A stretch of DNA of 64,000 bases from Naegleria gruberi (taxonomy: Eukaryota), in assembly GCA_000004985.1 (NCBI GenBank), contig GG738846.1. One strand, 5' to 3'. The first letter of the stretch is position 1, and every line of letters starts with the position of its first letter. This document shows, piece by piece, positions 14,755 through 48,685 of this stretch. The position numbers and the translations under genes are program-made. The notes beneath the pieces were generated by a model. It did no database searches, was not told the origin of the DNA, and saw nothing but the letters and a program-made list of their open reading frames with translations.

Positions 14755-17700
14755 ATGAACAGGACGGTTAATATTGTTCTCCTTTCCATAGTTTCCGTTC
14801 TAGCCTTATTCTTCCTTTCTGGAGGTGTAAGTGCTGGTTCTGGTATTTACGAAGCAGCATGTAACACTACTGCTGACTGTGTTTCCACATTAGCTTGTGA
14901 TACTAATACATCCCTCTGTATTTGCGATACTGGTTTGGTTAGATATAATGATTCTCTCTGTGTTCCAGCCTGTACTTCTGATGCCAACTGTACTAATGGT
15001 GGTGTCTGTGATTTAACTTCTGGTACTTGTAATTGTACTGCCAATTATGATGGACCAACTTGTACTGATTCTCTAATTGTTCAAGGTAACAATAGTTCTG
15101 ATAGTAGTAACAATGCTACTGACCCATCAAGTCCTTCTGCTAATAATACTGACTCGTCTAATAGTACAGATCCATCAACTCCAAGTGGTAATAACAGTAC
15201 TAACAATGAAACTAATCCATCAACTCCAGGTGGTAATAACAATACTAGTAATGGTACAACTGATCCAACTAATCCATCTTCCAATAATACCGATCCATCA
15301 ACTCCAGGTGGTAACAATAGCACTAACAATGGTACAACTGATCCATCAACTCCAGGTGGTAATAACAGTACTGGTAATAATACCAATCCATCAACTCCAG
15401 GTGGTAATAACAATACTAGTAATGGTACAACTGATCCAACAAATCCAACCAGTAACAACACTAATCCATCTTCCAACAATACCGATCCATCAACTCCAGG
15501 TGGTAATAACAGTACTGGCAATAATACAGATCCATCAACTCCAGGTGGTAATAACAATACTAGTAATGGTACAGCTGATCCAACAAATCCAACCAGTAAC
15601 AACACTAATCCATCAACTCCAGGTGGTAACAATAGCACTAACAATGGTACAACTGATCCAACAAATCCAACAAGTAACAACACTAATCCATCTTCCAATA
15701 ATACTAATCCATCAACTCCAGGTGGTAATAACAGTACTGGTAATAATACCGATCCATCGACTCCAGGTGGTAATAACAATACTAGTAATGGTACAGCTGA
15801 TCCAACAAATCCATCTTCCAATAATACTAATCCATCAACTCCAGGTGGTAATAACAGTACTGGCAATAATACCGATCCATCGACTCCAGGTGGCAACAAT
15901 AGCACTAGCAATGGTACAGTTACTGATAAGTGTACTGATATCAATTGTGTACACGGTTCATGCATTGATGGTGCCTGTCAATGTGAAACTGGTTATACAG
16001 GTTCTCTCTGTGATCAAGCTATTACATCTAACAATACTGATAAGTGTGCTGATATCAATTGTGTCCACGGTTCATGCAGTGAAGGTGTCTGTCAATGTGA
16101 AACTGGTTATACAGGTTCTCTCTGTGATCAAGCTGTTACATCTAACAATACTGATAAGTGTGCTGATATCAATTGTGTCCACGGTTCATGCATTGATGGT
16201 GTCTGTCAATGTGAAACTGGTTATACTGGTTCTCTCTGTGATCAAGCTGTTACATCTAACAATACTGATAAGTGTGCTGATATTAATTGTGTACACGGTT
16301 CATGCATTGATGGTGTCTGTCAATGTGAAACTGGTTATACTGGTACTCTCTGTGATCAAGCTGTTGATCCATGTACCAACATTAAGTGTGGCAGCCATGG
16401 TTCCTGCTCAAAGGGTGTCTGTGTTTGTACTGACGGATACACTGGTTCGAACTGTGAAACTGCTCCAATTACTTGTAATGGTAAGAGTGAAGCTGAAGGT
16501 GGCTGTTCATTCCATGGTACATGTAGCGCCACTGATAAGTGTATTTGTAATGGTAACTTTGACTCTGCCTCTTTCTGTTCAAAGTGTAAGACTGGTTATA
16601 CAGGTTCTGACTGTTCTATTCCAGTTTGTTTCAATGTTCCTTCTACTTCTAGCAGTGTTTGTTCTGGAAAGGGGTCTTGCACAGCTCCTGATTCTTGTGT
16701 ATGTGCTTCTGGTTACTCTGGAAAGACGTGTTCTTCCTTCTCTTGTTGGGGTATTGATAAGTCCAACAGCACTGTATGTGGTGGTAGCTCTAAGGGTACT
16801 TGTGTTGGTCCAAATAAGTGTTCTTGTGTTTCCAACTGGAACAATCTTGAAAATACCTGTGTATCCTGCAGTCCTGCATACACTGGTGAGACTTGTACTC
16901 AAGCTACTTGTTCTGCCAATACAACTTGTAGTTCCCATGGTTCATGCGATGAAAAATTCAAGTGTGTCTGTTCTGGAAACTGGGATGGTGAATTCTGTAA
17001 TGTTTGTAAGGCTGGTTTTGTAGGTGATAACTGTGATATTGCTTGTTCTGCCTCTACTTGTAATGGTAATGGTGTTTGTACCAAGACTGGAGCTTGTTTA
17101 TGTGTTGGTCACTATGATTCTGCCCAAAAGTGTGCTGCTGGTAAATGTGCTGATGGTTTCCAAGGTAGCGCTTGTGACTATAAGGTAGACAGTTCCTCTT
17201 TCGCTTTTAACCAATTTGGTGATAGAATTATTGCCACTGTTTACACTAGTATGAAGAAATCTGTTAACTGTTCTCAAGTTTTCACATCAGTTGCTACCCT
17301 TGGTGCCGGTGTTCAATGTAACATGGACGGTGTCAGTAAGCTCGAAGTTGTTTTGGGGGCTGGTGCTACTGTAAAGCTTGGTGATTCATTGCAAGTTTAT
17401 ACACTCCTTGGTGATGTTTCTAATACTGTTTCCGTAACTGTTAAGGTTGGTAGCTTTGTTGCTGTCGCACCAACTGCTTATTTGACAACCGATAAGGCTG
17501 TTGTTTCCACTTGTGATACTGTCACTTTGAATGCATTTGACTCTGTTTCTACTGATCGTCGTCCATTGAACTTTGCTTGGACTTGCACTGCTGCTCCAAC
17601 TGCTGATGCCCAGACTACATTGAATAATGCTCTCAAGGTTACCTCAAGTGGTGTTAGACTTAACTTGGTTTCTCTTGGTCTTGTTGCTGGTACTTACACT

Positions 17701-20049
17701 GTTCAAGTCACTGTTACTTCATCATTCAGTGCCTCATCATCATCAAAGAGTGTCTCATTCACTGTAACTGCTAGTCCTGCCCCAGGTCTTTCTATTAAGG
17801 AAGGTTCAGTTGTTGAATATTTGATTGGTACTACTAGCATTATCACTCCAGTAATTTCCTTCCCAACATGTTACACGGGTAATGGTTCTGTTGCTTATTC
17901 ATTCGCTTATATCAACTCTATTGCCACTCCAACCATTGTAACTAAGGATAACATGGTTGTTATTGCAAAGACTAGTACTGCCATCTCTACTGTCGGTGAC
18001 TATTACATTGTTGTTACTGCTGCTGCTAATGGAGCTTCTGAAGTTTCCACTACTGTTAGAATTAAGGCTGTTGCAAAGCCATTAACTGTTACATTCAGTG
18101 TTCCAGATATGACCCAATCTAAGGATGATGCTGTTGACTTCACTGTCAATATTGTTGATCCAAGCGATACTACTGGTACTTTGGCCATTACAAGCACTTG
18201 TGTTGATGCTGATGGTAACACATGTGTGGCCCCAGCTGCTACTGAATCTGCCTCATTCTCAAAGTCCTTACCTGCTGGTAAATATACATTCACTACAACA
18301 GGTACAAAGGATATCAGAACTACAACTGCCAAGTTGACTATCACTGTTGTTGATACTGCAAAAGATAAGATTATTAGAGTTTCCATCACATCCAATACTG
18401 ATTTGTCCACTGTTGATCCAACCAAGGACTTGTACTTGACTTATAACACTTTGGATGCCTTGTCTACATCCGCCAAATTTACCTGGACATGTGACTCTGG
18501 TGACAGCAGTACTTCCTCTCTTTTGACAGTTTCAAAGGCTAACATGGTTCCTGGTGCTACCTACACTGCTTCGTTGAATATTGTAGATGGTGTCAAGTCT
18601 GGTTCTGCTATTGTTTCATTCACTGTTAATGCTCCACCAACAAAGGGTATCTTTGAAGCTTATCCACTTTCTGGTGCTGCTTTGAGCGATTCTTTCGATC
18701 TCAAGTGTGGTAATGGTTGGTCTGATCCACAATCTCCATTGAAATTCCAATTCTTATACTTGGATGCTGCATCTAACAATTGGGTTTCACTCACCGAAAA
18801 GACTGAACAACAAAGCACAAAGGTTCAACTTCCTTCACCATCTTCTGGTGACTCTTTGAAGGTTAAGGCTATTGTTTTTGATGCATTGGGTGCTTCAACT
18901 GAATCCGAGCAACTTTCTATCTCAATTACCAAGCCAAGTACTGCTGATGCCACTAAAGCTTTGAGTGGTTTGGCAGAATCAAAGGGCACTATAACCTTGT
19001 CAGCTGCTTCCTCTGCCATGTCTGTCATTGGTACTGTTGATTTGACAACAGCTACTGCTGAACAAAAGACTCAAATTGCTACCGCTGCCGCCGCTATTGC
19101 TGATGCTTTCATTTCTCAACAAACCAAGACTGAAGCTGTTACCTCAGTTTCTGCTGCCTCTGCTGAAAATAGCTTGTCATTCACAGCCTCCCTTGCTAGC
19201 TCAGTTTCTAAGGGTCTCGTTAGTGATGCTACTACTTCAAAGGTTGTTAGCAATTTGGCTTCCACTACTACAAAGGTTGTTTCTGCATCTTCTGTCAGTC
19301 TCTCTGATTCAGTTCTCGATTCTACCAAGAAAACTGCTGACAACTTCTATGGTTACATTTCTGGTAAGGTTTCTGCTAGAGTTCCACCAGTTTCTTCTTT
19401 GAGAGCTTTCAGTAAGGTCGATCTTGACAATTTGAACAGTGTTTACTCTAGTGTTGCTTCTTTGAAGACTAAGGATGCCGTTCCTGATGCTCCAGCTGCA
19501 ACCGTCACCTCAAACGGATTGACCACAGTTTCTCGTAAGGTCAATCTTGCTACTTTGGCCTCTGAATCTCAAGTTGTTTCTGGTAAGAATAAGATCACCT
19601 TCAAGAGTGCCATTGCTGCTAACTCTGCTTTGGCTAGTTTGAAGTCTGTCACTTATGCTGTAAAGACCACCACTTCCACTGTTACATCTGCTGCCTCAAA
19701 GTCTATCGATTTCTCCATTTCTAATGGTGCTTCTCCAGTTGCTGTTTCTGATTCTGCTGCTATTGCCGATTTGGTCTTTGAACTTTCTGCCAAGAGATCT
19801 GTTGCTGCTACTACTTACACATGTAACAAGATTACTAATGGAGTTGCTGCTGCTGATTCAACTTGTACTATTGTTGTTGGTACTGATGGTACTGTAACTG
19901 CTAGTGTCAAGAGCACTGGTGTCTATGTTTTAACTGCTTCCACCCCAGTTACTCCTGCTGCCACCAAGAGTGCTAAGGTCAATGCTGCTCCATCAATGGG
20001 CTTCTCTGCTTTGGTTGCCTTGATCGCTGCTGTTGTTGCTGCTTTGTAA
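14755..20049 (+). CDS. Giant (1764 aa) secreted, probably GPI-anchored surface glycoprotein. It has a signal peptide and a Cys-rich N-terminus. A hyper-N-glycosylated Asn/Thr/Pro repeat stalk follows, then multiple tenascin-type EGF-like repeats. Ser/Thr/Val-rich beta-sandwich units carrying F[AT]WTC motifs come next, then a conserved CGNGWSD...PLKFQF module. The C-terminus is a hydrophobic tail.
   Basis: Single ATG ORF. The signal peptide is MNRTVNIVLLSIVSVLALFFLSGGVSA. There are dozens of NxS/T sequons within NPSTPGGNNSTGNNTDPSTPGG repeats. The EGF spacing CxCxxGYTGxxC recurs. The C-terminus ends ...APSMGFSALVALIAAVVAAL (a GPI-signal-like tail). The reverse-strand ORFs over this region (15081-15965 and others) are repeat artefacts. 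Confidence 0.8.
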   Translation: MNRTVNIVLLSIVSVLALFFLSGGVSAGSGIYEAACNTTADCVSTLACDTNTSLCICDTGLVRYNDSLCVPACTSDANCTNGGVCDLTSGTCNCTANYDGPTCTDSLIVQGNNSSDSSNNATDPSSPSANNTDSSNSTDPSTPSGNNSTNNETNPSTPGGNNNTSNGTTDPTNPSSNNTDPSTPGGNNSTNNGTTDPSTPGGNNSTGNNTNPSTPGGNNNTSNGTTDPTNPTSNNTNPSSNNTDPSTPGGNNSTGNNTDPSTPGGNNNTSNGTADPTNPTSNNTNPSTPGGNNSTNNGTTDPTNPTSNNTNPSSNNTNPSTPGGNNSTGNNTDPSTPGGNNNTSNGTADPTNPSSNNTNPSTPGGNNSTGNNTDPSTPGGNNSTSNGTVTDKCTDINCVHGSCIDGACQCETGYTGSLCDQAITSNNTDKCADINCVHGSCSEGVCQCETGYTGSLCDQAVTSNNTDKCADINCVHGSCIDGVCQCETGYTGSLCDQAVTSNNTDKCADINCVHGSCIDGVCQCETGYTGTLCDQAVDPCTNIKCGSHGSCSKGVCVCTDGYTGSNCETAPITCNGKSEAEGGCSFHGTCSATDKCICNGNFDSASFCSKCKTGYTGSDCSIPVCFNVPSTSSSVCSGKGSCTAPDSCVCASGYSGKTCSSFSCWGIDKSNSTVCGGSSKGTCVGPNKCSCVSNWNNLENTCVSCSPAYTGETCTQATCSANTTCSSHGSCDEKFKCVCSGNWDGEFCNVCKAGFVGDNCDIACSASTCNGNGVCTKTGACLCVGHYDSAQKCAAGKCADGFQGSACDYKVDSSSFAFNQFGDRIIATVYTSMKKSVNCSQVFTSVATLGAGVQCNMDGVSKLEVVLGAGATVKLGDSLQVYTLLGDVSNTVSVTVKVGSFVAVAPTAYLTTDKAVVSTCDTVTLNAFDSVSTDRRPLNFAWTCTAAPTADAQTTLNNALKVTSSGVRLNLVSLGLVAGTYTVQVTVTSSFSASSSSKSVSFTVTASPAPGLSIKEGSVVEYLIGTTSIITPVISFPTCYTGNGSVAYSFAYINSIATPTIVTKDNMVVIAKTSTAISTVGDYYIVVTAAANGASEVSTTVRIKAVAKPLTVTFSVPDMTQSKDDAVDFTVNIVDPSDTTGTLAITSTCVDADGNTCVAPAATESASFSKSLPAGKYTFTTTGTKDIRTTTAKLTITVVDTAKDKIIRVSITSNTDLSTVDPTKDLYLTYNTLDALSTSAKFTWTCDSGDSSTSSLLTVSKANMVPGATYTASLNIVDGVKSGSAIVSFTVNAPPTKGIFEAYPLSGAALSDSFDLKCGNGWSDPQSPLKFQFLYLDAASNNWVSLTEKTEQQSTKVQLPSPSSGDSLKVKAIVFDALGASTESEQLSISITKPSTADATKALSGLAESKGTITLSAASSAMSVIGTVDLTTATAEQKTQIATAAAAIADAFISQQTKTEAVTSVSAASAENSLSFTASLASSVSKGLVSDATTSKVVSNLASTTTKVVSASSVSLSDSVLDSTKKTADNFYGYISGKVSARVPPVSSLRAFSKVDLDNLNSVYSSVASLKTKDAVPDAPAATVTSNGLTTVSRKVNLATLASESQVVSGKNKITFKSAIAANSALASLKSVTYAVKTTTSTVTSAASKSIDFSISNGASPVAVSDSAAIADLVFELSAKRSVAATTYTCNKITNGVAAADSTCTIVVGTDGTVTASVKSTGVYVLTASTPVTPAATKSAKVNAAPSMGFSALVALIAAVVAAL
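15100..15905 (+). repeat. Nested in-frame coding repeats built on a roughly 42 nt (14 aa) unit, encoding an N-glycan sequon-dense Asn/Thr/Pro stalk
   Basis: Recurring ccatcaactccaggtggtaataacagtactgg / gatccaacaaatcca blocks visible in the sequence. Confidence 0.8.
15922..16380 (+). repeat. Four tandem near-identical 123-bp units, each encoding one 41-aa EGF-like module (TDKCADINCVHGSCIDGVCQCETGYTGSLCDQAVTSNN)
   Basis: Units start at about 15922, 16045, 16168 and 16291. Only a handful of substitutions separate the units, which points to recent intragenic duplication or gene conversion. Confidence 0.85.
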
Positions 20050-37824: not shown

Positions 37825-38351
37825 GTTTTTTTTAATCAGATAAAATCAATGTCAATGTACACTGCCCCAACATTGTCCAAATAAGAATGCATTAAAAAGA
37901 CTCTAATTCTAATTGAGATTTCTGCATTTTCAAATGTGTCCAAACACGATTCTTCCTTAGACAATATGTTTCATTTGGTAACTAGCACATCCTTAATTAT
38001 CAGTGTCGGTTGCAGAAAAACGGTTGGAGAAAGGAAAAAAAATCGATCAAAATCTACAACAGCAGCTGAGTCCTTCCAAACAGACATATACTCTCTTCTG
38101 ACCACTCACTCTGACTGAAAATTACCTTACTCTCCTACTAAGGCACCACTCTCTTTTTGCAAATAGCAATAACAGAAACAACAATATTACGGAGAGTTGT
38201 GTTGCATGAGGAAAATTTTGATTGTTTCAAAAAAACTCATATTGTGTTAATAGGAATTAAGCAATCATCATCAAACTCACTTCGGACACTATAATACTAG
38301 TAATAGAAGTATTTAAAATTTCAGAGTGGAAATACAAACGATTTACAAAAT

Positions 38352-41111
38352 ATGGGAGGAGGAAATTCAAAACAAAAACTACAAGTGGAAATGACTCTTG
38401 TAGATGATGAATCAAAAATTGATCTTCTCATTGATCATACACCAAATCCTGCAAAGGTTGGAAGCCCCCTTCCTTTCGTTAATAATACTTACACATTGAG
38501 AGCATCCACACCAACCTCAAACCTTCCACCAGAACCTACCATAACAATCAGCACAACAAATTCTCTCACCACTGATCTTAAACCGTACCTGCCCAAACAA
38601 AATTCCAAAAAGAATACTAACCCAAGAACTAACAAAACCAATAGTAACCCTTCCGAATCTAATTTACTTCCTAAAATTACACAACAACGTCAATCTTTTG
38701 ATGCTTCTATGCTTCAATCTGGGAGAAACTCTCCTGCTGGTGAATCTTCAACTATAGTAACTAATAATCGAGCAAAATCAAAATCAAACTCTAGGGTTGT
38801 GGATGTTCCTTCTCCGTCTGTAAACAATAACTTGTCACCAGCAGTTACTTTGGATGACAGATCAACCCTACTAACAGGATACAAGACACATAGTACTCAA
38901 TCACTAATGTCCTCAACTAGTATCAAAGATAGTGAACTATTGAATTTTCATGGAGATGTCTGTATTGAAAATAAGGCTCATCTAGTGAGCTTGGTAATTA
39001 GCAATATGGACGATATGGTTTTTATAATAACTGATTTGAAAAATAATTATTACATTTATGAAACTTCATACCCGAGGTTTTTACAGAAATTCTTTTCTGG
39101 TGAAGAAAGCGCAGCCTCCCTTCCACCCTATAAGAGGCATAGAAGAATGCTCGATATGATTGGTCTGGCATTCTCATTTCAAACCTACAGTGTTATTCCT
39201 GAGTCGGCCGATAACAATATCAAAATATCCCTTACCTTGAAATATCAAGCTGACAATATTGACAAGACAGTAGTGTTCAAGCTGATAAAGCATGTTCCAG
39301 ATTTAACTGATCCATCTAATAGGCTGATACACTCCACTATTTGTAAATTAATTATTGGTCTGTTTGGAAGTTATCACAATTCGAGAAAAGACAAAACAAA
39401 TATCCTAAGACAAACAATTCCAACCATGGCACTTATCACGGAAGTTGGAACAAATGCACAACAAGAAGATGAAGAGGAGGAAGAGGAACCTGAATACAGT
39501 TTGAGATCAGATAAATCTGAAGATGATCTAGTAAATCTTAAAGAAACCAAAAGAGAAGAAAAATCAAAAATGGATGAACCACCAAAACTCTCATTTTCGA
39601 TGGAACAGTCAGGAGAACAAGAAGAATCCAAGGTTATCAAAGTTAAAAAATTAGGTGTAAAACCAGCTAAAAAGTTTGTCACTGTCACAATTGATGAAGA
39701 GCCAGACTTGATTACCACTACAGAAATGGTAGTCTTTTTGAGAAAGCTACAAGCACTTCTATCTTTAAGAGATGATATTCCCTTCGATAAGAATAAGTTT
39801 TCTCTCATCATTAAAACCATAGCTAAGAATTCAGATATTGTTGAGGACGAAATTAAGGATACAAATCCTGATCTAGAAGTTTCAGCCTTCTTGAACGCAT
39901 TTGTAAAGCCTAGAGCAAAATCAAGGGAAAGGGCTGGGTGGAGAACAATTGCAAATCTCATTAGAGTTGGTGTTGTTTTCAAGCAACAAACTCTTCAAAC
40001 AACTGTCAAGAATATTAATGCAATCGATAGTAACCCTGGATTGGAAGAGAAATTGAAGAGTATAGATCGATATGACTTTGATGTGTTTGAATTAAATGAA
40101 GCATCGAGGGGAAAGCCACTGTATGTGATATTTACCTATTACCTTCGTCGATTTGGATTGTTGGAACATTTCAATATTGACAGAGAAGTCTTGCATGCAT
40201 TCCTTAGAGAGATTGAAACTCACTATGGGTACAATGCCTTCCACAATAGCATTCATGCTGCTGACGTACTTCAAACATTCATGTACCTATTAGATTTGAT
40301 AGGTATGATTCCGTTCCTTACTCATGAGGAATTGTTGGCTGTCATATTGGCAGCTGCCATGCACGATTTTCAACATCCAGGAACAACAAATCAATTCCAA
40401 ATCCTTTCATCCTCTGATTTGGCCATTACTTATAGTGACAAGTCAGTATTAGAGAGCCACCATGTTGCCTCCTTCTACAGAGTCCTCCAACAAGAGAAAT
40501 ACAACATTCTGAAAACACTATCAGCCAAACAAAGAAGGCAAATCAGAGAAATTTCAATTGGTCTGATATCAGCAACGGATTTATCATTCCAAGGAAGTTT
40601 TATGAATCAATTACAAGCAGTTTATGATGTTTCACATGGTCACATTGATTTAATGTCTGAAAAGTCTCTAGTTCTAAAACTTTGCCTCAAATTGGCCGAC
40701 ACTGCAAATACCTCAAAACCTCTCTATCTGCACTTTTCCTGGATCTCTCGGCTACAAAGAGAATTCTTCATCCAAGGCGATAAGGAAAAAGAGTTGGGTA
40801 TGGATGTTAGCCCTTTCATGGACAGAACCAAGTGCAACTTTACAAAATGTCAAAATTCTTTTATTGAATATGTGACCTATCCGTATGTGGCTTTATTCGC
40901 AAAATGCTTTAAAGAAGCAGCTCCAATACTGGAATATTCAAAACAAGTCAAAGAATATTGGTCGAATAGTGTGGTAGTTAGTACATTCGAGGAAGTTGAA
41001 CAAATGATTAGAAATGAGCTTGCAAAGGTTAATAAGGTTGTGACGCAGTCACATTTGGGAGCAAACACGTCATTCAACACGACACCAAGAGAACAAGGGA
41101 CAGAAGAATAA
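38352..41111 (+). CDS. Class I 3',5'-cyclic-nucleotide phosphodiesterase with a long Ser/Thr/Asn-rich N-terminal region and an N-myristoylation motif
   Basis: The start is MGGGNSKQ (MGxxxS). The C-terminal catalytic domain has YNAFHNSIHAADVLQT and HDFQHPGTTNQFQI (the PDEase_I HD signature HDxxHxGxxN), plus SVLESHHVASFYRVL. Confidence 0.8.
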   Translation: MGGGNSKQKLQVEMTLVDDESKIDLLIDHTPNPAKVGSPLPFVNNTYTLRASTPTSNLPPEPTITISTTNSLTTDLKPYLPKQNSKKNTNPRTNKTNSNPSESNLLPKITQQRQSFDASMLQSGRNSPAGESSTIVTNNRAKSKSNSRVVDVPSPSVNNNLSPAVTLDDRSTLLTGYKTHSTQSLMSSTSIKDSELLNFHGDVCIENKAHLVSLVISNMDDMVFIITDLKNNYYIYETSYPRFLQKFFSGEESAASLPPYKRHRRMLDMIGLAFSFQTYSVIPESADNNIKISLTLKYQADNIDKTVVFKLIKHVPDLTDPSNRLIHSTICKLIIGLFGSYHNSRKDKTNILRQTIPTMALITEVGTNAQQEDEEEEEEPEYSLRSDKSEDDLVNLKETKREEKSKMDEPPKLSFSMEQSGEQEESKVIKVKKLGVKPAKKFVTVTIDEEPDLITTTEMVVFLRKLQALLSLRDDIPFDKNKFSLIIKTIAKNSDIVEDEIKDTNPDLEVSAFLNAFVKPRAKSRERAGWRTIANLIRVGVVFKQQTLQTTVKNINAIDSNPGLEEKLKSIDRYDFDVFELNEASRGKPLYVIFTYYLRRFGLLEHFNIDREVLHAFLREIETHYGYNAFHNSIHAADVLQTFMYLLDLIGMIPFLTHEELLAVILAAAMHDFQHPGTTNQFQILSSSDLAITYSDKSVLESHHVASFYRVLQQEKYNILKTLSAKQRRQIREISIGLISATDLSFQGSFMNQLQAVYDVSHGHIDLMSEKSLVLKLCLKLADTANTSKPLYLHFSWISRLQREFFIQGDKEKELGMDVSPFMDRTKCNFTKCQNSFIEYVTYPYVALFAKCFKEAAPILEYSKQVKEYWSNSVVVSTFEEVEQMIRNELAKVNKVVTQSHLGANTSFNTTPREQGTEE

Positions 41112-41113
41112 AC

Positions 41114-41875
41114 TTATTTTCCTCTTTTTTTCCAATCAATAACTAGCTCATCATCACTGGATTCAGATTGATCATTTTCCACTTTTGCTACTTCATCACT
41201 TGTTCCATTTGTGGGTTTTCCTTTCAATAATTCTTTTTGTTTTTTCAATTCTTCAATTTTTAAAAACTCTTCCACTTGTCTCTTCATTTCCTCAGAGTCC
41301 TCTCTTTCATCTTGTTCTTTTTCTAGGGCCTCAATATTCTTCTCTGTCTTGGTTTGTTTAGCAGGGAGAGGGTTCTTCTTATCCGATGCACTATTGATAG
41401 ATTTCTTTACAACTGAGGATTTCACAAGTTGTGCAAATCCTTTATCTTTAAATAATTCATCAGTCTTGTTGTTCAATTCCTTGTATCCATCTCGAATACT
41501 CTTTAGATCCTTCTCCGATGGAGCAATATCAAAAAATCCAGCAGGAAGAGGTTTTAAATAGGTAGAATCACTGCTCTCTGATGATTTGACAGAATCCGCC
41601 ACTTGAAGAGAAGCTCTAATAGATGAATTTGCTACTCTATCCACATTAGGTTGATTTGGTCCTGCAGAGGCTGGATTAACAAGTTTCTTCTTCGCAAGAG
41701 GATAAGAAGTGAAATCTTCCTCCGATGTAGTAGATCTTTTCTTTGACTCTTGTTTCCTATTGTTACTTGATGCTGATGATTGACTATTACCACTTCCTTT
41801 TGCTTTTGGTTCCTCTGCTGCAAAACTTCCAACCACTTTTGCTTTTGTCTTTGCAAAGGGATTTGTCTTTTTCAT
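41114..41875 (-). CDS. Small Lys/Ser/Glu-rich charged protein, unassigned. It is convergent with the PDE gene, with only 2 nt between the stop codons.
   Basis: ATG-initiated 253-aa ORF (MKKTNPFAKTKAK...). Its stop occupies 41114-41116, and the PDE stop occupies 41109-41111. Confidence 0.5.
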   Translation of the reverse strand: MKKTNPFAKTKAKVVGSFAAEEPKAKGSGNSQSSASSNNRKQESKKRSTTSEEDFTSYPLAKKKLVNPASAGPNQPNVDRVANSSIRASLQVADSVKSSESSDSTYLKPLPAGFFDIAPSEKDLKSIRDGYKELNNKTDELFKDKGFAQLVKSSVVKKSINSASDKKNPLPAKQTKTEKNIEALEKEQDEREDSEEMKRQVEEFLKIEELKKQKELLKGKPTNGTSDEVAKVENDQSESSDDELVIDWKKRGK

Positions 41876-42076
41876 TTTTTAAATATTTTGAAGGTGAAGA
41901 ATTATTTCGTGTAATGCTTCTTGCACATGTTAAACTGTTATTGAAAATAGTCCCTTGTTGAGCCAGAGTCTAGAAACTTTATCATGATGGAAAGTTGTTA
42001 ATAATTCTACCAAAGCAATAAAGCAATGCATGAGATTTATTTAAAATAATAAAAAAAAATAAAATTGCAAAAAAAA

Positions 42077-42583
42077 ATGTCTTCATCATCGATTCGTAAT
42101 CCAACTGCTTTAGCCTTGAAAAGCATTGGTTCATTGTACGGAAACCCTCACGTGTTGAGAAAGAAATTTTCGCTTCGTATGATTAAAAAGATTCACTTTA
42201 ATTATTGTCCATTGATGTTGAAGGAAGTAAACAAGGGAGCTAAGGATTTTTATGATAGATGTTGGGCACCAAAAACAAAAACCACAAACCCAGATTGTAG
42301 TATTTCGATTGATGTATATGATAATAATGCTGATTCTAAACCACCATCTCTAATTATTGAATTTGAAGATGGTAGAAAATTGGACTTTTCCGATGTGAGT
42401 TATGTATCAACAGCTGCTATCATGGAAGCTATTCAATTAAAAAAGAAAAAGATTAAGAAATATTATCAAACTGTCGGAAAGGATTATTATGAAACTGAAG
42501 ATGAAGAAAATCCATTAGCTTTACAAGATAAAAAGGACGAAGAAGAAGCTATGGCAGGTGCCAAGAAAAAGAAGAAGAAATAA
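42077..42583 (+). CDS. Small basic protein. It is possibly a mitochondrial ribosomal/NDUFA2-type L51_S25_CI-B8 domain protein.
   Basis: ATG at 42077 (MSSSSIRNP...); the track start at 42065 is a TTG. KDFYDRCWAPKTKTTNPDCSISIDVYDNNADSKPPSLIIEFEDGRKLDF fits the ...NP.v.i.....P.l...y.dG pattern of the MRPS25/MRPL43/NDUFA2 fold. The C-terminal tail is K-rich. Confidence 0.4.
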   Translation: MSSSSIRNPTALALKSIGSLYGNPHVLRKKFSLRMIKKIHFNYCPLMLKEVNKGAKDFYDRCWAPKTKTTNPDCSISIDVYDNNADSKPPSLIIEFEDGRKLDFSDVSYVSTAAIMEAIQLKKKKIKKYYQTVGKDYYETEDEENPLALQDKKDEEEAMAGAKKKKKK

Positions 42584-42798
42584 TTCTAATGTGGATATCG
42601 TTAGAGATGATAGTATTGTTATTGGTCTACTACTTATAATGGTACTATTGTTATTTATAGTTATCGTTAAATAGGTTTGAAAAACATTCAATAATAAAAA
42701 AATATATTTTAAAAAACAGTGTTATTATTAATGAATTTGCTGTTAAATTAGAAAAGTGTTGGGAAATAATTATAATAATTCAATTTGTTGCTTGAAAT

Positions 42799-44262
42799 TT
42801 ATTTCAAATTAGAACTAAAATGAACATATTTTGCTTTGGCTGATGACTTGCTCTTGATGGATTCATTTTGGGTCCTGTGATTTGATCTTTGTTGAACATT
42901 AGAACACCAATACATGTTCATAATCTTATTACCACTTGTGAGGTATACATCTTTGGTACGCATCTCATTCAAACATTCTCTCAATTCATTGATTAAGTTT
43001 TGACAATACTGATCATTTGAAGTAATACTCATAGTAATGGTATTGATCGCTGTGTTAATAATTAATCGAGCAGCATCAAGTTGATTGGAATCGGCTAAGG
43101 CCTTTGCTTTCTGTAATGCTTCAGTTTGTAGGAGTCTATTCTTTTGGAGGTCTATTAAACGATTATCTGTTAAATTGCCACCAACTGTCATTTCACCTCT
43201 TGTAATATGGGTGATACATTGAAGAGCTTCCTTTTCAATCTTTTCGATATTCATGTATTCTAATTGAATATCTAATAATTGTTGCTTTTCAATTCCACAA
43301 GATTCTGCCAACAATTCCAATTCAAACAAAATATCTCTATTTTCTTCATAGTATAAATCTTTCAATTTGATATGAATCTCCTTATTAGGAAGTATTATTT
43401 CTTGCTTTACAAATCCATATTCTGAATTTAAAATTCTCTTCAGCAATACTCGATCTGAAATGCATTTGAATTTGAGTACAATATTTTGGGCAAATACAGA
43501 GATTAAACCTCCCAAACAATCTGAAAATGCTTGGGGAATTTCATCTTCTGATTTAATGTAATAGTACAAGCCTCCTCCAACTTTACAAATCTCTGTCAAA
43601 CAATTTGCCGAATGTTCCTCTCCAAAACCAAAAGTAAATACACTAGTATTATTTGAATTGATTGACATGTTTGAAAATGAATTAATTAAATTATTGACGT
43701 TTGTTTGACTTGAAAAACTAGTATTTTGCAAATTCAACTTGGTATATAATTTTTCTACAATATTTACAATCTTATCTTGTTGTTGCACACCAACAGTTGG
43801 TAATCCATCAGTGAAAAGTAGAATTGATGTTGTAGGAGAAATATTACCTCCTCTATTTGCCAATATATCAAAGGCTTCAATAATGGCTCCACTAATATTA
43901 GTAGTTGTACCCAACTTGATATTATTTACACAATTCATTGCTTGTTTCTTACCACCATTATCCATAGAGGTCAACTTTAAAGTGGTTGAAACGTTTGCAT
44001 CAAATTCAACAATTCCTAGCCTGTCTCTTGCTTGCATCTGATCAATCATGAATAATAATGACTTTTTAACCAACTCAATCTTATCACTCATAGAACCAGA
44101 TTTATCAAGGACAGCAATTATATCCAAGCTCGATCTATTCTCCTTCTCAACATATATTGGAGCTTTAATAGATGCCATACCAAACATATTTTGTGTTTGA
44201 TTATATTTGACCTGATCATATTCAAAGGTACAACTGAAAGAAACGCTTGGTGGAATGAGCAT
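42799..44262 (-). CDS. von Willebrand factor type A (VWA) domain protein with a roughly 280-aa C-terminal extension
   Basis: A MIDAS motif is present in DIIAVLDKSGSMSDKIELVKKSLLFMIDQMQARDRLGIVEFDANV...TNISGAIIEAF. The first ATG is about 44262; the track start at 44319 is a GTG. Confidence 0.65.
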   Translation of the reverse strand: MLIPPSVSFSCTFEYDQVKYNQTQNMFGMASIKAPIYVEKENRSSLDIIAVLDKSGSMSDKIELVKKSLLFMIDQMQARDRLGIVEFDANVSTTLKLTSMDNGGKKQAMNCVNNIKLGTTTNISGAIIEAFDILANRGGNISPTTSILLFTDGLPTVGVQQQDKIVNIVEKLYTKLNLQNTSFSSQTNVNNLINSFSNMSINSNNTSVFTFGFGEEHSANCLTEICKVGGGLYYYIKSEDEIPQAFSDCLGGLISVFAQNIVLKFKCISDRVLLKRILNSEYGFVKQEIILPNKEIHIKLKDLYYEENRDILFELELLAESCGIEKQQLLDIQLEYMNIEKIEKEALQCITHITRGEMTVGGNLTDNRLIDLQKNRLLQTEALQKAKALADSNQLDAARLIINTAINTITMSITSNDQYCQNLINELRECLNEMRTKDVYLTSGNKIMNMYWCSNVQQRSNHRTQNESIKSKSSAKAKYVHFSSNLK

Positions 44263-44580
44263 TATTAATTTATTCTTTTTTTTTGATTTTGAAAAACTCA
44301 GCAGAACTGTTAACAACACTTCAATGATTATTAATAGGTACTAAGTACCAAGTTCCATCAACCAGAAAATATACCTTATTCCAAGCAAGGTTTTGTTCTG
44401 TTTGATTGGAATTTTATTGGAGAGAATTATTTGGCAATCTGTTGGATTTCTTAGGAAAAATATATTCAGCGGCTGAGGGTGATGGGAAATTCTTATTCAA
44501 GTATCTGGACTTGTCGTAAAAAAAACTCAATCATCTTCTTCGTTGAAAACTTGAAACACCAAGTCTCTTGGTGTTGGTCT

Positions 44581-44815
44581 CTAATCTGTATTATCTGAAA
44601 GCATTAATGGTAGGTATTTTTTCAGTATTTCATTATCTGTCTCAAGATTATTCAAGAGATTGAGTACCAAAGAATGATTTTCCAAATTATCTAATCTTTC
44701 CTTGTTTAAAACTTCCAACATTACTAATCCAAATGAGTAGACATCACTTTGAGGAGATACTCTTCCGGTAATCTTTTGTCCTTTATATTCAAAATCTTTT
44801 TTTCTTTCAGGAGAT
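44581..44815 (-). pseudogene. Orphan protein-kinase C-lobe fragment covering only subdomains VIII-XI. It is a putative gene relic or pseudogene, or a mis-joined terminal exon.
   Basis: The minus strand reads (Y)RSPERKKDFEYKGQKITGRVSPQSDVYSFGLVMLEVLNKERLDN...LSDNTD*, which contains the APE-like SPE motif and the canonical DVYSFG(L/V)V subdomain IX motif. It is preceded by an AG acceptor, but there is an in-frame stop immediately upstream. No catalytic-core exons (VAIK, HRD, DFG) lie in the 250 bp before the next gene. Confidence 0.45.
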
Positions 44816-45106
44816 CTGTATCATATTGTAATTCGAAACATGATTAAACAAAATTCTATTGAACTTACCTCTAGAAAAAAAGTTACTACAGGAAAAGTTA
44901 GAATTATTAAATTGGTTTTGTTGGTTTTTATTTTGTTTCGTTATATATTTTGCAATTCACTCACTATTTGTGTAAACTCAGCTGCCATGGATCCCACATC
45001 CATTTTCGTATTCTATTAAATCATTAAATTCTTCCCAAACATCATCTGTTTCCACCGGAGTTGTTTTAAATTGTGTGGGGTTAATAATGGGAAAAAGTTA
45101 CAAAAA

Positions 45107-45922
45107 ATGTCGCACCAAATAACACAAGTACCATCATCAACCACAGAGTCCTCTTCGACATGGGAAGAAGACAATGATTCATTTTCGGAACAAGCTAAAC
45201 ATAAATATTTGGTAGATTCTAATGATGATAGTAACAATGTAATGATCAATGCTCATTACGATCACGATGATAAATATCAATGGAGTATTCCCGATGTTGA
45301 AGGTGGAGCCTATTTAAATACGTTAGAATCAAAACTTTACAAATTAACTAATGGAAGAGGTTTGGGAAGGAGTTTGAGAATGGGTACTGGTAGTAATAAT
45401 ACTACTAGTAATCAAAAATCAAAAAAGAAAATTGAATATAGTGATGGATGTAAGAAGTGCGTGGATTATTTCGAGGAGGAGATTGATTTAAATGTACCAA
45501 AGGAAGAGTTGATTGGAGCTGCTCCTCTATTAGAGGAATCCGAACTTTTGCATGATAACACAGAGGAATCGAATGAAGCTGTGGGTTTTGAAGATTTGCA
45601 AATCAAAGAACTTGAAGAGGAATCGTGGCATCAGGATTATTCAATTAATGAGGAAGAAAAACAAGTAATCTATGACAAGAAAACTGGAGAACTTAAATTG
45701 GATCAAGAGGAAAATACAGTGACTGGTGCTGAGACAGACAATATTTCCAAAATTGACATGTCAGATGATGATGAAAGTGAAAGTGAAGACGAGGACGATG
45801 ATGAACAAGATGAATATGGTACAATGGAATTGCATGATGATGAGGAAGAAAATCATTTTGAATCTTATCAAACTTCGAATGTGACAAATAATGACGATGA
45901 CTGGGAGGCCGAATTTCCATAA
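45107..45922 (+). CDS. Acidic Asp/Glu/Ser-rich hypothetical protein
   Basis: ATG at 45107 (MSHQITQVPS...). It contains long acidic runs (DDDESESEDEDDDEQDEYG). Confidence 0.5.
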   Translation: MSHQITQVPSSTTESSSTWEEDNDSFSEQAKHKYLVDSNDDSNNVMINAHYDHDDKYQWSIPDVEGGAYLNTLESKLYKLTNGRGLGRSLRMGTGSNNTTSNQKSKKKIEYSDGCKKCVDYFEEEIDLNVPKEELIGAAPLLEESELLHDNTEESNEAVGFEDLQIKELEEESWHQDYSINEEEKQVIYDKKTGELKLDQEENTVTGAETDNISKIDMSDDDESESEDEDDDEQDEYGTMELHDDEEENHFESYQTSNVTNNDDDWEAEFP

Positions 45923-46059
45923 AATGTATATGAACAGATGAAATGTAAATAAAAATGTAACTTTATCAAGTTGTGAGCGTCCACGAACAATTCGTTGATA
46001 AATATTATCACAACTATTATTTGGAATAGTACAATTTCAACCATTATTAAGATGAATGT

Positions 46060-48685
46060 TCAGTTTAGAACCTTATTTAAATCCAAGCATTTATGAAGAA
46101 GGTAAAGAGCTACTTTGTCCTCTTCATAATACTTCTCTTGATAGGAAGACTGATGGAACTGAAATAGATCAATTGCTTCATCAAGGTCTCCTTCAAAAAA
46201 TTTGGCACATGCTTGGTTGTGGTGTTCCCAAGAATCTTTGAGACCACTGCTTGACTGTCTCCATTCTTCAGAATCTTCCATAGAGGTAGTTTCTCCTACC
46301 TGATACAACCTCGTTGGAAAACTTACTCTATCTTGTTTTGGTGAAATAATTGGAGAATTACCTTCATCATCTGCAAGCAGCTTTTTTTCTCCCACAAATC
46401 TGAAATTGTAACTATCCTTATTCTTTTCAAAAATTGACTCTGAAACAATGAGAGAAATTTCCAATTTGCTTGCATGCTTAATCAACAGCTGTAAATTGTG
46501 TAAATAACTTCCAAATATTGCATAATTCTTAATTTGAGAAGTCCCAACGTTACCACAAACACAGTGTTGTGAAAGTAACGAGCCTCTAAATGTAAACTTT
46601 AAATTTTGAATATGCGAATTCTTCCACTTCTTATCTCGAGTTGCTTTTAACCTTCTCAATATTTGATAAACAGAAAAAGTTGCTGACTCTTCATGTGAAC
46701 TCGATTCAATGATAGAATTCCAAGTAATAGTTATGTAATTATTCTCAAAGCTTCCTATTTGCCCATTGGTGGCTTGCGCAGTTTTCTGTATGATAACAAA
46801 ACAGTCATTGAGAACAGAAACAGTCTCATCAAAATCAAGAGCTGACAAGAAGTGATCCAAACCTTCAAAATAAATCATACCACTTGTTACTCTTCTCTTT
46901 TCCAATCCTAGACAAAACAATCGTTCTAGTTTTGGAGTAGTAGCTGCTGCATCTCTTGTTATCACAGATATTTGACCATTTACACTTCCTGAGGTCGATG
47001 TCAAAGAGTGTTGTCTTTCCAAGATCATTCTTCCTATTGTTGACTTTCTTAAATTGACTTCCATATCTAGCTTTTGAAGAATATGTGGCGGAAGGAATGC
47101 TCTGTAATTTTTCAGCCTTGTCAACATGGTTTGGAAATGCTTTTGTAAAATGTTGACCTCTGCCAATGATGACGGCCTCATCTGGATGTCTTCAAGTCTC
47201 ATGTTTGAAATTGATTCGAATACTGTTGTCAATTGTTGAAATGGGCGGAAGAGAGAAATGCTCGACACGACCCCCATCACTGCACCCACAATGGCAATAA
47301 TCAAACTTGACAGAATACCAACAATCAAGGCAATAAATAACTGACCAACATAGTCCCATTTTGGAACATTTAGCACTAGCAGCCAATCCACTCCTGCCTT
47401 ACAAAACCTATTCATGCAAATAACACTGTCTTCATTTGTAAAAAACTGGTACTCTCCACATTTGAGAGATTTCAAGTTATTATTCATAGAAGTGTAGATT
47501 AATTTGGAAACAGATCGTATCTTGGGTTGTTCAAAAGTTAGGGCAGTCATTCTTGTCTCTGTTCTATCTTGATTGAATTTAGAAACTGGTATATCAGGAA
47601 AACTTGCTATTATTGTTACATTTGAGGATTTCATTATACCACTACTTACAAACAACAATATAATTCGTCTCTATTTCAATAGCAAAAGCTACAGAGCCGC
47701 TTATAGCTTCAGTGACTGATTCAATGTAATTTGAAATTGACGATACACTGATATCAATTCCAAAATACCAATCATATGGTAGTTTTGAGCTATTGTCAGG
47801 ATGTGAATTGACACAACTCATAAATGTTATAGAAGGTAACGTTGGGTCAGTGTAAGACCTCGAAAATTGAGGCTTATTGGGGGAATTATTTGCAACACCC
47901 ATGATTTTAGACATATCAAATGGTCCCAGTATGACATCAGGAACATCCTTATTCTTGTAGTCACAAAATCCCTTATTTAAAAAATCATCACAATACCAAT
48001 AATATTGTCCAGTCTCATTAATTAACATTTGAGTTGGTTTTCCTCCTAATACTAACACTCCCAAATTCCCTCCCAGAGTGTCTCTTGGAAAAGTTTCTTT
48101 TAAATTGAAATGTTTCTGAAAAACTTACCCAAAATAAACAGTCACCATTAAGGTTGATAAATACGTAAATGCACTCTTATAAATCCTATATGTCAAAGAG
48201 TAGGCATTCTCAGTATTGTTATAATTAAAATCCTCCCACATTATATTCTTTGTTGTATCTGAAACAACTAGAACCTTATCAATGGTTTCATCGGTGAAAT
48301 TTACAACTTTTTCAATTTGTTGCCTTAATACATCCTGACTAAATTTTGAAACACTCGAACTAAAACAAGAAATCCATATTGTAGTGAGTAATAGAGAAGT
48401 AACAATTACTAAAGAGACCATAATTACTATTAAAACACACTTGATGGAGTATACAGTCCTCGTCTCTCCATTTCCTCCCTCATAATTTCCACCACTATTA
48501 TTATTATTATTATTATTATTATTATCCTGAATATATATTGAGGAAACTTTTTCATCATTCCCAGTTTCATTCCTAGAGGAATAACTTGCTTGCTCTTCCG
48601 ATGTATTAAATTTAATGCTAGCAATGTTGGGCAGTGAATCACGGTCATCATACGCAAGAACCTTATTATTTCTCATGTAATACAT
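46060..48685 (-). CDS. Receptor-type class III nucleotidyl-cyclase homology protein (ACG-like topology). It has a cytoplasmic poly-N N-terminus and a first TM helix. A roughly 330-aa extracellular sensor-like domain follows, then a second TM helix and an intracellular cyclase homology domain with degenerate catalytic residues. Three exons: 48685-48129, 48083-47650 and 47606-46060.
   Basis: The introns are 45 and 43 nt (GTAAGT...AG) and preserve the frame. The TM helices are VLIVIMVSLVIVTSLLLTTIWI and LFIALIVGILSSLIIAIVGAVMGVV. The CHD blocks are VTSGMIYFEGLDHF (compare VTILFSDIVGFT), IGSFENNYITITWN (compare IGDAYM, second metal Asp replaced by Ser) and FRGSLLSQHCVCGNVGTSQIKNYAIFGSYLHNLQLL (compare RIGIHTGPVVAGVVG...YDIWGDTVN). 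Confidence 0.6.

What the first reader, a model, noticed from the sequence alone, without database searches (positions are those of the whole stretch)
44581..44815. Stand-alone protein-kinase C-lobe fragment between two genes
A roughly 78-codon minus-strand ORF encodes kinase subdomains VIII-XI (SPE...DVYSFGLVMLEVL) and ends at a TAG. It begins at a splice-acceptor-like cag. There is no room or coding potential upstream for the N-lobe or catalytic loop, since an in-frame stop and the next gene's start lie within 250 bp. It is either a decaying pseudogene or relic, or a terminal exon whose partner exons lie far away.
Basis: seen in the sequence. Interest (0 to 1): 0.5.

Follow-up and report, generated by a model that had tools for sequence, protein, structure and literature searches.

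The report
Truncated kinase pseudogene relic in Naegleria
The kinase C-lobe fragment is real, but it is the dead 3' remnant (end of one exon, a 46-nt intron, and the last exon) of a Naegleria-specific protein-kinase gene that lost its 5' part, so it is an ordinary unannotated pseudogene relic.

Summary
The window is Naegleria gruberi NEG-M, shown by exact matches to five annotated proteins. The minus-strand fragment is a true kinase C-lobe. Its closest full-length relative is NAEGRDRAFT_69812 (tblastn E 1e-12 to 2e-16, 45-47% identity), which passes Pfam Pkinase; the fragment alone does not.

The TAG at 44583-81 is an internal nonsense codon. The invariant subdomain-XI Arg (KRP) follows it, and a 99%-identical sister-strain contig (L001) has AAG (Lys) there. 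Homology then continues through a frameshift (5-bp deletion plus 1-bp insertion near 44532/44525) to the subfamily stop at 44416-14.

Upstream, the 'cag' is not the acceptor. It lies inside the Tyr-Arg codons of the conserved GYRxPE motif. The real boundary is a conserved phase-1 intron (44868-44823, GTAAGT donor). Its acceptor is AG in the sister strain and AT here. Before it lies a stub of the previous exon (...NFFSR|G).

No N-lobe or catalytic loop is detectable upstream or anywhere in the 64 kb. The annotated gene NAEGRDRAFT_61919 starts 200 bp further up on the other strand.

Verdict: a 5'-truncated, intron-retaining pseudogene that is still decaying. Interest is low.

The parts
44870..44908 (-). 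Stub of the penultimate exon. It reads NNSNFSCSNFFSR, and base 44869 (g) supplies the first base of the split Gly codon of GYRSPE.
   Evidence: An 80-nt segment of a paralog (end of exon plus intron, L006 151-230) was searched against the whole 64-kb window. The best hit is exactly here, 44888-44852, 28/37 identities, E=0.001, spanning the exon|GTAAGT junction. The conceptual splice aligns SNFFSRGYRSPE with SRWFSKGYRCPE of NAEGRDRAFT_69812.
44823..44868 (-). Relic of a 46-nt phase-1 spliceosomal intron. The donor GTAAGT is at 44868-63. The acceptor dinucleotide at 44824-23 is AT in this genome and AG in the sister strain.
   Evidence: The position and phase match the 40-nt GTAAGT...AG intron that splits the same Gly codon in the paralog (L006 191-230, compared with protein P0112). 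The T/G difference at 44823 was found. The same T creates the apparent in-frame TGA at 44823-21.
44584..44822 (-). Terminal exon, first part: (G)YRSPERKK...DVYSFGLVMLEVL...LPLMLSDNTD. This covers kinase subdomains VIII to X.
   Evidence: (tblastn) and the family alignments.
44581..44583 (-). Internal nonsense codon TAG. It replaces the Lys of the conserved KRP motif of subdomain XI.
   Evidence: The sister strain has AAG. The Arg immediately after it is invariant in the family alignment (R88).
44530..44580 (-). Continuation of the terminal exon in the same frame: RPTPRDLVFQVFNEEDD.
   Evidence: It is aligned to paralogs.
44525..44532 (-). Frameshift lesion. Relative to the sister strain there is a 5-bp deletion (GCTAA) and one extra T in a T-run. 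Together they create the TGA at 44529-27.
   Evidence: for the differences. Searches show that the sister strain keeps the family frame (EEDELIEFFYDKSRY...) while the window does not.
44414..44530 (-). Tail of the terminal exon, shifted into another frame: LSFFYDKSRYLNKNFPSPSAAEYIFPKKSNRLPNNSLQ plus TAA (44416-14).
   Evidence: Coordinates are. HMMER alignments to paralogs extend to residue ~122 of the intact ortholog. BLASTP reaches the last residue of P0112, AAEYIF against SANDIF. The C-terminal extension aligns with those of P0057 and P0062.
45005..45114 (-). Possible but unproven traces of the catalytic segment: CDIFCNFFPLLTPHNLKQ (45114-45061) and LIEYE (45019-45005). They are collinear with the family's CDVLCQIVILE..HNDxKPxN and LIDYE, but lie in two frames.
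   Evidence: Seen by eye. Not significant in a frameshift-aware protein-to-DNA alignment or in a family HMM search against shuffled controls. Listed only as a lead.
42799..44262 (-). Downstream neighbour on the same strand: a VWA-domain gene. It is not part of the relic.
   Evidence: Pfam VWA E=2e-17. Orthologs in N. fowleri and Willaertia begin at the same Met and carry no kinase domain.
45107..45922 (+). Upstream neighbour on the opposite strand: the annotated gene NAEGRDRAFT_61919. It occupies the space where the kinase core would have been.
   Evidence: Exact protein match to EFC49942.1. Only 0.6 differences per 100 bp between the two strains.

Best explanation
This is a non-functional, 5'-truncated remnant of a formerly intact member of a Naegleria-specific family of divergent eukaryotic protein kinases. 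Family members include N. gruberi NAEGRDRAFT_69812, _68557 and _76522, and N. fowleri FDP41_006018.

What survives, within the ~840-bp spacer between two divergently oriented genes, is the last ~13 codons of the penultimate exon, a 46-nt phase-1 intron and the complete terminal exon (activation-segment GYRxPE through the C-terminal tail). The retained intron shows a DNA-level origin, not retroposition.

The kinase core (G-loop, VAIK Lys, HNDxKPxN, LIDYE) was most likely removed by a deletion or rearrangement. This step is inferred. The basis is that the terminal exon is still pristine in a 99%-identical strain, while everything more than ~40-90 bp upstream of the intron is unrecognisable.

In the reference strain NEG-M the remnant has decayed further. 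The splice acceptor is AG->AT, Lys is replaced by TAG, and there is a 5-bp deletion plus a 1-bp insertion. These lesions are shown directly. The relic therefore has no catalytic role. At most it is transcribed passively as promoter or 5'UTR sequence of the flanking genes, which was not tested.
For: Organism: five window ORFs are exact matches to N. gruberi NEG-M proteins, and the opposite-strand neighbour matches EFC49942.

Homology. The end-to-end alignment with residues 539-668 of P0112 has E=3e-23. Full-length relatives pass the Pfam Pkinase gathering score.

Conserved intron: the paralog's DNA has a 40-nt GTAAGT...AG intron that splits the same Gly codon. An unbiased blastn search places the paralog's exon-intron junction at 44888-44852 as the best hit in 64 kb.

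Lesions: the sister-strain contig L001 is 99.0% identical over 9.4 kb. It has AG, AAG (Lys) and the family reading frame where the window has AT/TGA, TAG and a frameshift.

No kinase core: frameshift-aware alignment and a family HMM give nothing above shuffled controls upstream. tblastn with family and generic kinases hits nothing else in the 64 kb. The one weak hit is a RING/TRAF protein.

Divergence between the two strains: the terminal exon shows 1.2 events per 100 bp, about four times the CDS rate of 0.33.
Against: In the sister strain the terminal exon is completely intact. It is a 143-codon ORF with an AG acceptor and a conserved stop. Between the strains it diverges less than the flanking promoter-type spacers (1.2 against 3.3 events per 100 bp, P~0.007-0.03). 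This could mean recent or residual constraint.

Two other N. gruberi models of the same subfamily (120 and 109 aa) are also C-lobe-only. This could be a pattern rather than an accident.

No transcript data could be consulted.
Confidence: 0.85

Rival explanations
1. The fragment is the ordinary last exon of a live multi-exon kinase gene whose upstream exons lie far away. The opposite-strand gene would sit inside a long intron, or the exons would be joined by trans-splicing.
For: The fragment does correspond exactly to a terminal exon bounded by a conserved intron.
Against: In this genome the exon carries an internal TAG and a frameshift, and its acceptor is AT. The preceding exon is only 46 nt away and is closed by stops within ~30 codons. 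No N-lobe or catalytic sequence exists anywhere in the 64-kb window. The next minus-strand ORF upstream (46060-47658) ends in a stop and has no kinase similarity.
Confidence: 0.03
2. The fragment is a stand-alone C-lobe-only mini-protein gene. It would be functional in some strains (the 143-aa ORF in the sister strain, and NAEGRDRAFT_68557 and _76522 elsewhere in the genome), and NEG-M would carry a recently inactivated allele.
For: The sister strain has an intact 143-codon ORF with a conserved C-terminal extension and stop. Two annotated N. gruberi proteins of the same subfamily are C-lobe-only. The exon diverges more slowly than the flanking spacers.
Against: The only ATG of that ORF lies inside the relic intron. 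The lost Gly codon and acceptor and the conserved exon stub show that the ancestral product was spliced to a larger protein. A kinase C-lobe lacking helices E-F and the catalytic loop is not known to fold or act alone (general knowledge). The short gene models may simply be incomplete or may be relics too. The numbers behind the divergence test are small: 5 events.
Confidence: 0.07
3. The fragment is a recent partial (3'-only) segmental duplicate of an intact parent kinase gene located elsewhere in the genome.
For: Only the 3' end of the gene is present. An intron is retained, as expected for a DNA-level copy.
Against: The closest N. gruberi proteins are only 45-48% identical, so no recent parent is seen in the annotated proteome. 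An old fragment copy would not be expected to keep a pristine ORF, as the sister strain does.
Confidence: 0.05

Closest known systems
NAEGRDRAFT_69812 (EFC42324, 668 aa) and the Naegleria-specific kinase family around it (NAEGRDRAFT_68557, _76522; N. fowleri FDP41_006018/005955/010563)
   Same: 45-48% identity from GYRxPE through SDVYSLGLV, KRP and the ...FP...IF tail. The phase-1 intron splits the same Gly codon. The insertion FEYKGQKITGRV resembles FKFNGISYKGRV.
   Different: The relic lacks everything N-terminal of the activation segment (VVKR Lys, HNDxKPxN, LIDYE). In NEG-M it also carries a nonsense codon, a frameshift and a dead acceptor.
Truncated (fragment) non-processed pseudogenes of eukaryotic genomes
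   Same: It is a partial gene copy retaining an intron, with disabling mutations. It sits in intergenic DNA and is unannotated.
   Different: Nothing essential differs. The unusual detail is that a 99%-identical strain still has the terminal exon intact, which dates the point lesions as very recent.
Eukaryotic protein kinase domain (Pfam PF00069 / PF07714), C-lobe subdomains VIII-XI
   Same: It has the APE-like SPE, the DxYSxG of subdomain IX and the Arg of subdomain XI.
   Different: The fragment is below the Pfam gathering score and has no catalytic core. It is not a pseudokinase in the usual sense, because those keep the complete fold.

Membership tests
Eukaryotic protein kinase domain (Pfam PF00069 Pkinase / PF07714 PK_Tyr_Ser-Thr) | Score at or above the Pfam gathering threshold | tested here: not met
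   The fragment scores 17.7 bits (cut-off 23.1) on PF07714 and 13.8 bits (cut-off 31.7) on PF00069. The intact sister-strain ORF scores 17.3 and 17.2. Its full-length homologs do pass Pkinase: P0112 38.2, P0117 66.7, P0065 60.3 bits. Kinase ancestry is therefore shown by transitive homology, not by a direct profile hit.
Eukaryotic protein kinase domain (Pfam PF00069 Pkinase / PF07714 PK_Tyr_Ser-Thr) | C-lobe motifs: APE (VIII), DxW/YSxG (IX), invariant Arg (XI) | tested here: met
   SPE at 44814-06, DVYSFG, and the Arg of RPT directly after the TAG.
Eukaryotic protein kinase domain (Pfam PF00069 Pkinase / PF07714 PK_Tyr_Ser-Thr) | Catalytic core: G-loop, VAIK Lys, HRD catalytic loop, DFG | tested here: not met
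   No significant match upstream of the relic or anywhere in the 64 kb. Only non-significant collinear traces (HN.K, LIEYE) were seen.
Naegleria-specific kinase family (NAEGRDRAFT_69812-like) | Significant sequence homology over GYRxPE through the C-terminal tail | tested here: met
   E=7e-18 (P0057) and 1e-13 (P0058, a fragment of 69812) library-wide. BLASTP E=3e-23 to the C-terminus of P0112.
Naegleria-specific kinase family (NAEGRDRAFT_69812-like) | Short phase-1 intron splitting the Gly codon of GYRxPE (N. gruberi members) | tested here: met
   L006 has a 40-nt intron and the window has a 46-nt intron, with the same phase and position. The junction similarity is the best blastn hit in the window. 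This was compared with only one paralog. The N. fowleri member has no intron.
   No group-specific profiles were available. Full-length relatives score better on Pkinase than on PK_Tyr_Ser-Thr, so TKL membership is unsupported.
Processed (retrotransposed) pseudogene | Absence of introns; poly(A) tract | tested here: not met
   The intron is retained at 44868-44823. No poly(A) tract follows the stop.
Non-processed truncated pseudogene | Homology to a functional gene family, plus disabling lesions and missing essential parts | tested here: met
   Nonsense codon, frameshift, mutated acceptor and absent kinase core.
Non-processed truncated pseudogene | Lack of expression or translation | not testable with these tools
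   No transcriptome or proteome data were available.

The most novel reading that the evidence does not exclude
Kinase C-lobe-only ORFs may form a small functional family of stand-alone mini-proteins in Naegleria gruberi, for example docking or decoy modules. Candidates are the intact 143-aa ORF in the sister strain and the models NAEGRDRAFT_68557 and _76522, which share a conserved C-terminal extension. The NEG-M locus would then be a presence/absence (null) allele that arose very recently.
Probability: 0.06. Interest if true: 0.55.

Novelty: new member of a known kind. Interest (0 to 1): 0.15.

Why it matters
The main value is for annotation. This is an unannotated pseudogene fragment in the N. 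gruberi reference genome, and it should not be called as a gene or a kinase. It also shows that gene-poor spacers in this compact genome can be gene remnants.

There are two modest points of wider interest. First, comparison with a 99%-identical strain catches the decay in progress: all four lesions whose direction could be inferred are private to NEG-M. Second, this lineage-specific kinase family seems to be eroding in N. gruberi. It has one full-length member, several C-lobe-only models, and a paralog with an apparent internal deletion in another strain. None of this changes what is known about kinases or pseudogenes.

Tried and rejected
1. Alternative genetic code (TAG as sense): rejected. 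The window has many long standard-code ORFs and is N. gruberi. The sister strain has AAG at that codon.

2. Kinase-VWA fusion, with the fragment as a 5' exon of the downstream VWA gene: rejected. VWA orthologs start at the same Met and none of 55 homologs carries a kinase domain.

3. N-lobe or catalytic remnants upstream: sought with low-threshold tblastn, a frameshift-aware protein-to-DNA dynamic-programming alignment with shuffles and a family HMM on three-frame translations. Nothing was significant. The HN.K and LIEYE resemblances are kept only as a lead.

4. A second upstream intron with a 17-nt micro-exon (GTGAGT...cctgtag|TAACTTTTTTTCTAGAG|GTAAGT): considered by eye. It does not yield an open kinase-like frame in either strain.

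5. Orthologous loci in N. fowleri and Willaertia: only the VWA gene is shared. The flanks are not syntenic and there is no relic, so this says nothing about the origin.

6. Fetching N. gruberi genomic DNA for the paralogs failed. The genome is not in the gene-position index.

7. The JGI metagenome scan returned only generic kinases from other eukaryotes.

8. Rfam scan of 43.5-46 kb: only sub-threshold snoRNA noise. There is no repeat copy of the spacer elsewhere in the window.

9. Literature searches for the project accession and for the N. gruberi kinome or pseudogenes gave nothing specific.

Full report
**The observation.** Translating the minus strand from 44823 gives *YRSPERKKDFEYKGQKITGRVSPQSDVYSFGLVMLEVLNKERLDNLENHSLVLNLLNNLETDNEILKKYLPLMLSDNTD*RPTPRDLVFQVFNEEDD*. 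On its own it is only a sub-threshold Pfam match: PK_Tyr_Ser-Thr E=0.002, 17.7 bits against a cut-off of 23.1, covering profile positions 179-217. The reading frame continues past the TAG with RPT..., the position of the subdomain-XI arginine. That was the first sign that the TAG is internal and not a natural stop.

**Organism and context.** The window is gene-dense, has about 33% G+C, and shows long standard-code ORFs. These include Piezo, REJ/EGF, phosphodiesterase, BRCT, B9 and Myb proteins. Five ORFs are exact matches to Naegleria gruberi NEG-M proteins on a ~1.0-Mb scaffold.

The fragment lies in the ~840-bp spacer between two divergently oriented genes:
- A VWA-domain gene on the minus strand, with its ATG at 44262.
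- NAEGRDRAFT_61919 on the plus strand, 45107-45922, an exact match to EFC49942.

**Relatives.** A word-indexed search with the fragment found a single protein, P0001 (143 aa, 98% identical). It is encoded on a 9.4-kb ENA metagenome contig, L001, which is 99.0% identical to window 38330-47716. L001 therefore comes from a sister strain or haplotype of N. gruberi.

An exhaustive HMMER search with P0001, followed by cluster look-ups, showed that the true relatives form a Naegleria-specific family:
- N. gruberi NAEGRDRAFT_68557 (120 aa, 48% identity, E=7e-18).
- N. gruberi NAEGRDRAFT_69812 (668 aa, found through its fragment P0058, E=1e-13).
- N. gruberi NAEGRDRAFT_76522 (109 aa).
- N. fowleri FDP41_006018, 005955 and 010563.
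- Two metagenomic proteins (P0082, P0117).

The full-length members carry VVKR, HNDxKPxN, LIDYE/LIDFE, GYRxPE, SDVYSLGLV, KRP and a ...FP...IF tail. They pass the Pfam Pkinase gathering score at 38-67 bits. The fragment's kinase ancestry is thus established transitively. tblastn of P0112 hits only this spot in the window, at E=1.3e-12, or E=1.7e-16 against a 6-kb subregion. Full-length relatives score higher on Pkinase than on PK_Tyr_Ser-Thr, so the TKL label is not established.

**The real boundaries.**

*3' side.* In the family alignment, the Arg that follows the window's TAG is invariant (R88). The sister strain has AAG (Lys) in place of TAG. Further on, the window lacks 5 bp (GCTAA) and has one extra T near 44532/44525 relative to L001. 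L001 keeps the family frame (EEDELIEFFYDKSRYLNKNFPLPSAAEYIF...). The window runs into TGA at 44529-27, and the homologous tail continues in another frame to NNSLQ plus TAA at 44416-14. BLASTP of the L001 product reaches the very last residue of NAEGRDRAFT_69812, aligning AAEYIF with SANDIF.

*5' side.* The family motif is GYRxPE. The window has TGA where L001 has GGA (44823 T/G).

*Intron.* The paralog's genomic DNA is available from the same metagenome as contig L006. Compared with protein P0112, it shows a 40-nt GTAAGT...AG intron that splits exactly this Gly codon in phase 1...ttttctatag|GTAAGT...gctAG|gctatcga. The window has the same structure...ttttttctagag|GTAAGTtcaatagaa...ttacaata[T]|gatacagatct. 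The donor is at 44868, the intron is 46 nt, and the acceptor at 44824-23 is AG in L001 but AT in NEG-M.

*Unbiased check.* The paralog's 80 nt (exon end plus intron) were searched against the whole 64-kb window. The best hit (E=0.001, 28/37 identities) lies at 44888-44852, across the exon-intron junction. Splicing the stub to the exon conceptually gives ...SNFFSR-G-YRSPE, which aligns with ...SRWFSK-G-YRCPE.

*Conclusion.* The 'cag' is not the acceptor. Used with this stub it would shift the frame. The T at 44823 is best read as a splice-acceptor mutation.

**Upstream of the stub.** The stub's frame closes at a stop about 30 codons up and contains no Met. By eye there are collinear resemblances to the catalytic segment: CDIFCNFFPLLTPHNLKQ against CDVLCQIVILE..HNDVKPQN, and LIEYE against LIDYE. 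Three tests found nothing above shuffled controls:
- A frameshift-aware protein-to-DNA alignment. The best case was 2 of 100 shuffles, for one query on L001.
- A family HMM on three-frame translations.
- tblastn with family and generic kinases over the whole window.

The single weak distant hit is a RING/TRAF protein. The annotated opposite-strand gene begins 200 bp above the stub. The kinase core is therefore absent, and the 'distant partner exons' idea has no support within 64 kb.

**Interpretation.** The retained intron rules out a retrocopy. The terminal exon is pristine in the sister strain, whereas the sequence beyond the stub is unrecognisable in both strains. That argues for removal of the 5' part by deletion or rearrangement before the strains split, and against slow in-situ decay of the whole gene. 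This step is an inference.

No near-identical parent is visible in the annotated proteome; the closest proteins are 45-48% identical. A recent partial duplication is therefore less likely.

Since the strains split, NEG-M has acquired four lesions whose direction can be inferred from the family: acceptor loss, Lys to stop, a 5-bp deletion and a 1-bp insertion.

Divergence between the strains, in events per 100 bp:

| Region | Events per 100 bp |
|---|---|
| Coding sequence | 0.33 |
| Intergenic DNA (very heterogeneous, 0-6.6) | 3.3 |
| Terminal exon of the relic | 1.2 |

The relic exon is higher than coding sequence (P~0.01-0.02) and lower than the promoter-type spacers (P~0.007-0.03). This fits recent loss of constraint, but it rests on only five events.

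**What remains open.** The intact 143-codon ORF in the sister strain and the two annotated C-lobe-only models of the same subfamily leave a small possibility of a functional C-lobe-only product. No transcript data were available. Orthologous VWA loci in N. fowleri and Willaertia share only the VWA gene and show no kinase remnant, so they do not date the event.

**Verdict.** This is an unannotated, 5'-truncated, non-processed pseudogene relic of a lineage-specific kinase family. It is a new instance of a very common kind of feature and its interest is low.

Noticed in passing
L006 1-230 (ENA ERZ929261 contig k127_494491), compared with protein P0112: In the metagenome strain, the paralog NAEGRDRAFT_69812 appears to carry an internal deletion of ~550 bp. 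...HYDINKRIELV is joined directly, and out of frame, to NGKDLLVSRWFS. This removes the N-lobe and catalytic loop. It could be a real second decaying copy or an assembly artefact.
   Followed up: partly
N. gruberi proteins NAEGRDRAFT_68557 (P0057, 120 aa) and NAEGRDRAFT_76522 (P0062, 109 aa), elsewhere in the genome: Both annotated 'predicted proteins' consist only of the same kinase C-lobe plus tail. They share a C-terminal extension with the sister-strain ORF (...N.LQ*). They may be further relics or incomplete gene models.
   Followed up: partly
window 42799-44262 (-): A clear 487-aa VWA-domain gene, with ~49% identical orthologs in N. fowleri and Willaertia. Its exact product is not in the protein collection, and no N. 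gruberi entry appeared among its homologs. It seems to be unannotated, or modelled differently, in NEG-M.
   Followed up: partly
L001 2815-2895 compared with window 44892-44823: The sister strain has the 16-mer TTTCGAATTACAATAG twice: at the 3' end of the relic intron and again 63 nt upstream, where NEG-M has TTTTCCTGTAG. This leaves a 17-nt segment flanked by two acceptor-like sites. Together with an upstream GTGAGT, it resembles a second intron plus a micro-exon, but it gives no open frame.
   Followed up: partly
window 38330-47716 compared with L001: Strain divergence is very uneven among spacers. The divergent-promoter spacers (41876-42100, 44263-44413) show about 6 events per 100 bp. The convergent 3' spacers (42584-42798, 45923-46059) show 0-0.7.
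   Followed up: partly
window 46060-47658 (-), with further ORFs at 47642-48064 and 48125-48685: A 532-aa ORF with no Pfam hit at E<0.1. By eye, its C-terminal half resembles a degenerate class III nucleotidyl-cyclase domain. It is probably part of a larger multi-exon receptor-like gene.
   Followed up: no
window 14755-20049 (+): A 1764-aa REJ/teneurin-EGF protein gene in a locally G+C-richer stretch (41-42% against ~33%). It has internal near-identical repeats, for example GGATTGGTATTATTGGAAG at 15296, 15389, 15710 and 15833.
   Followed up: no
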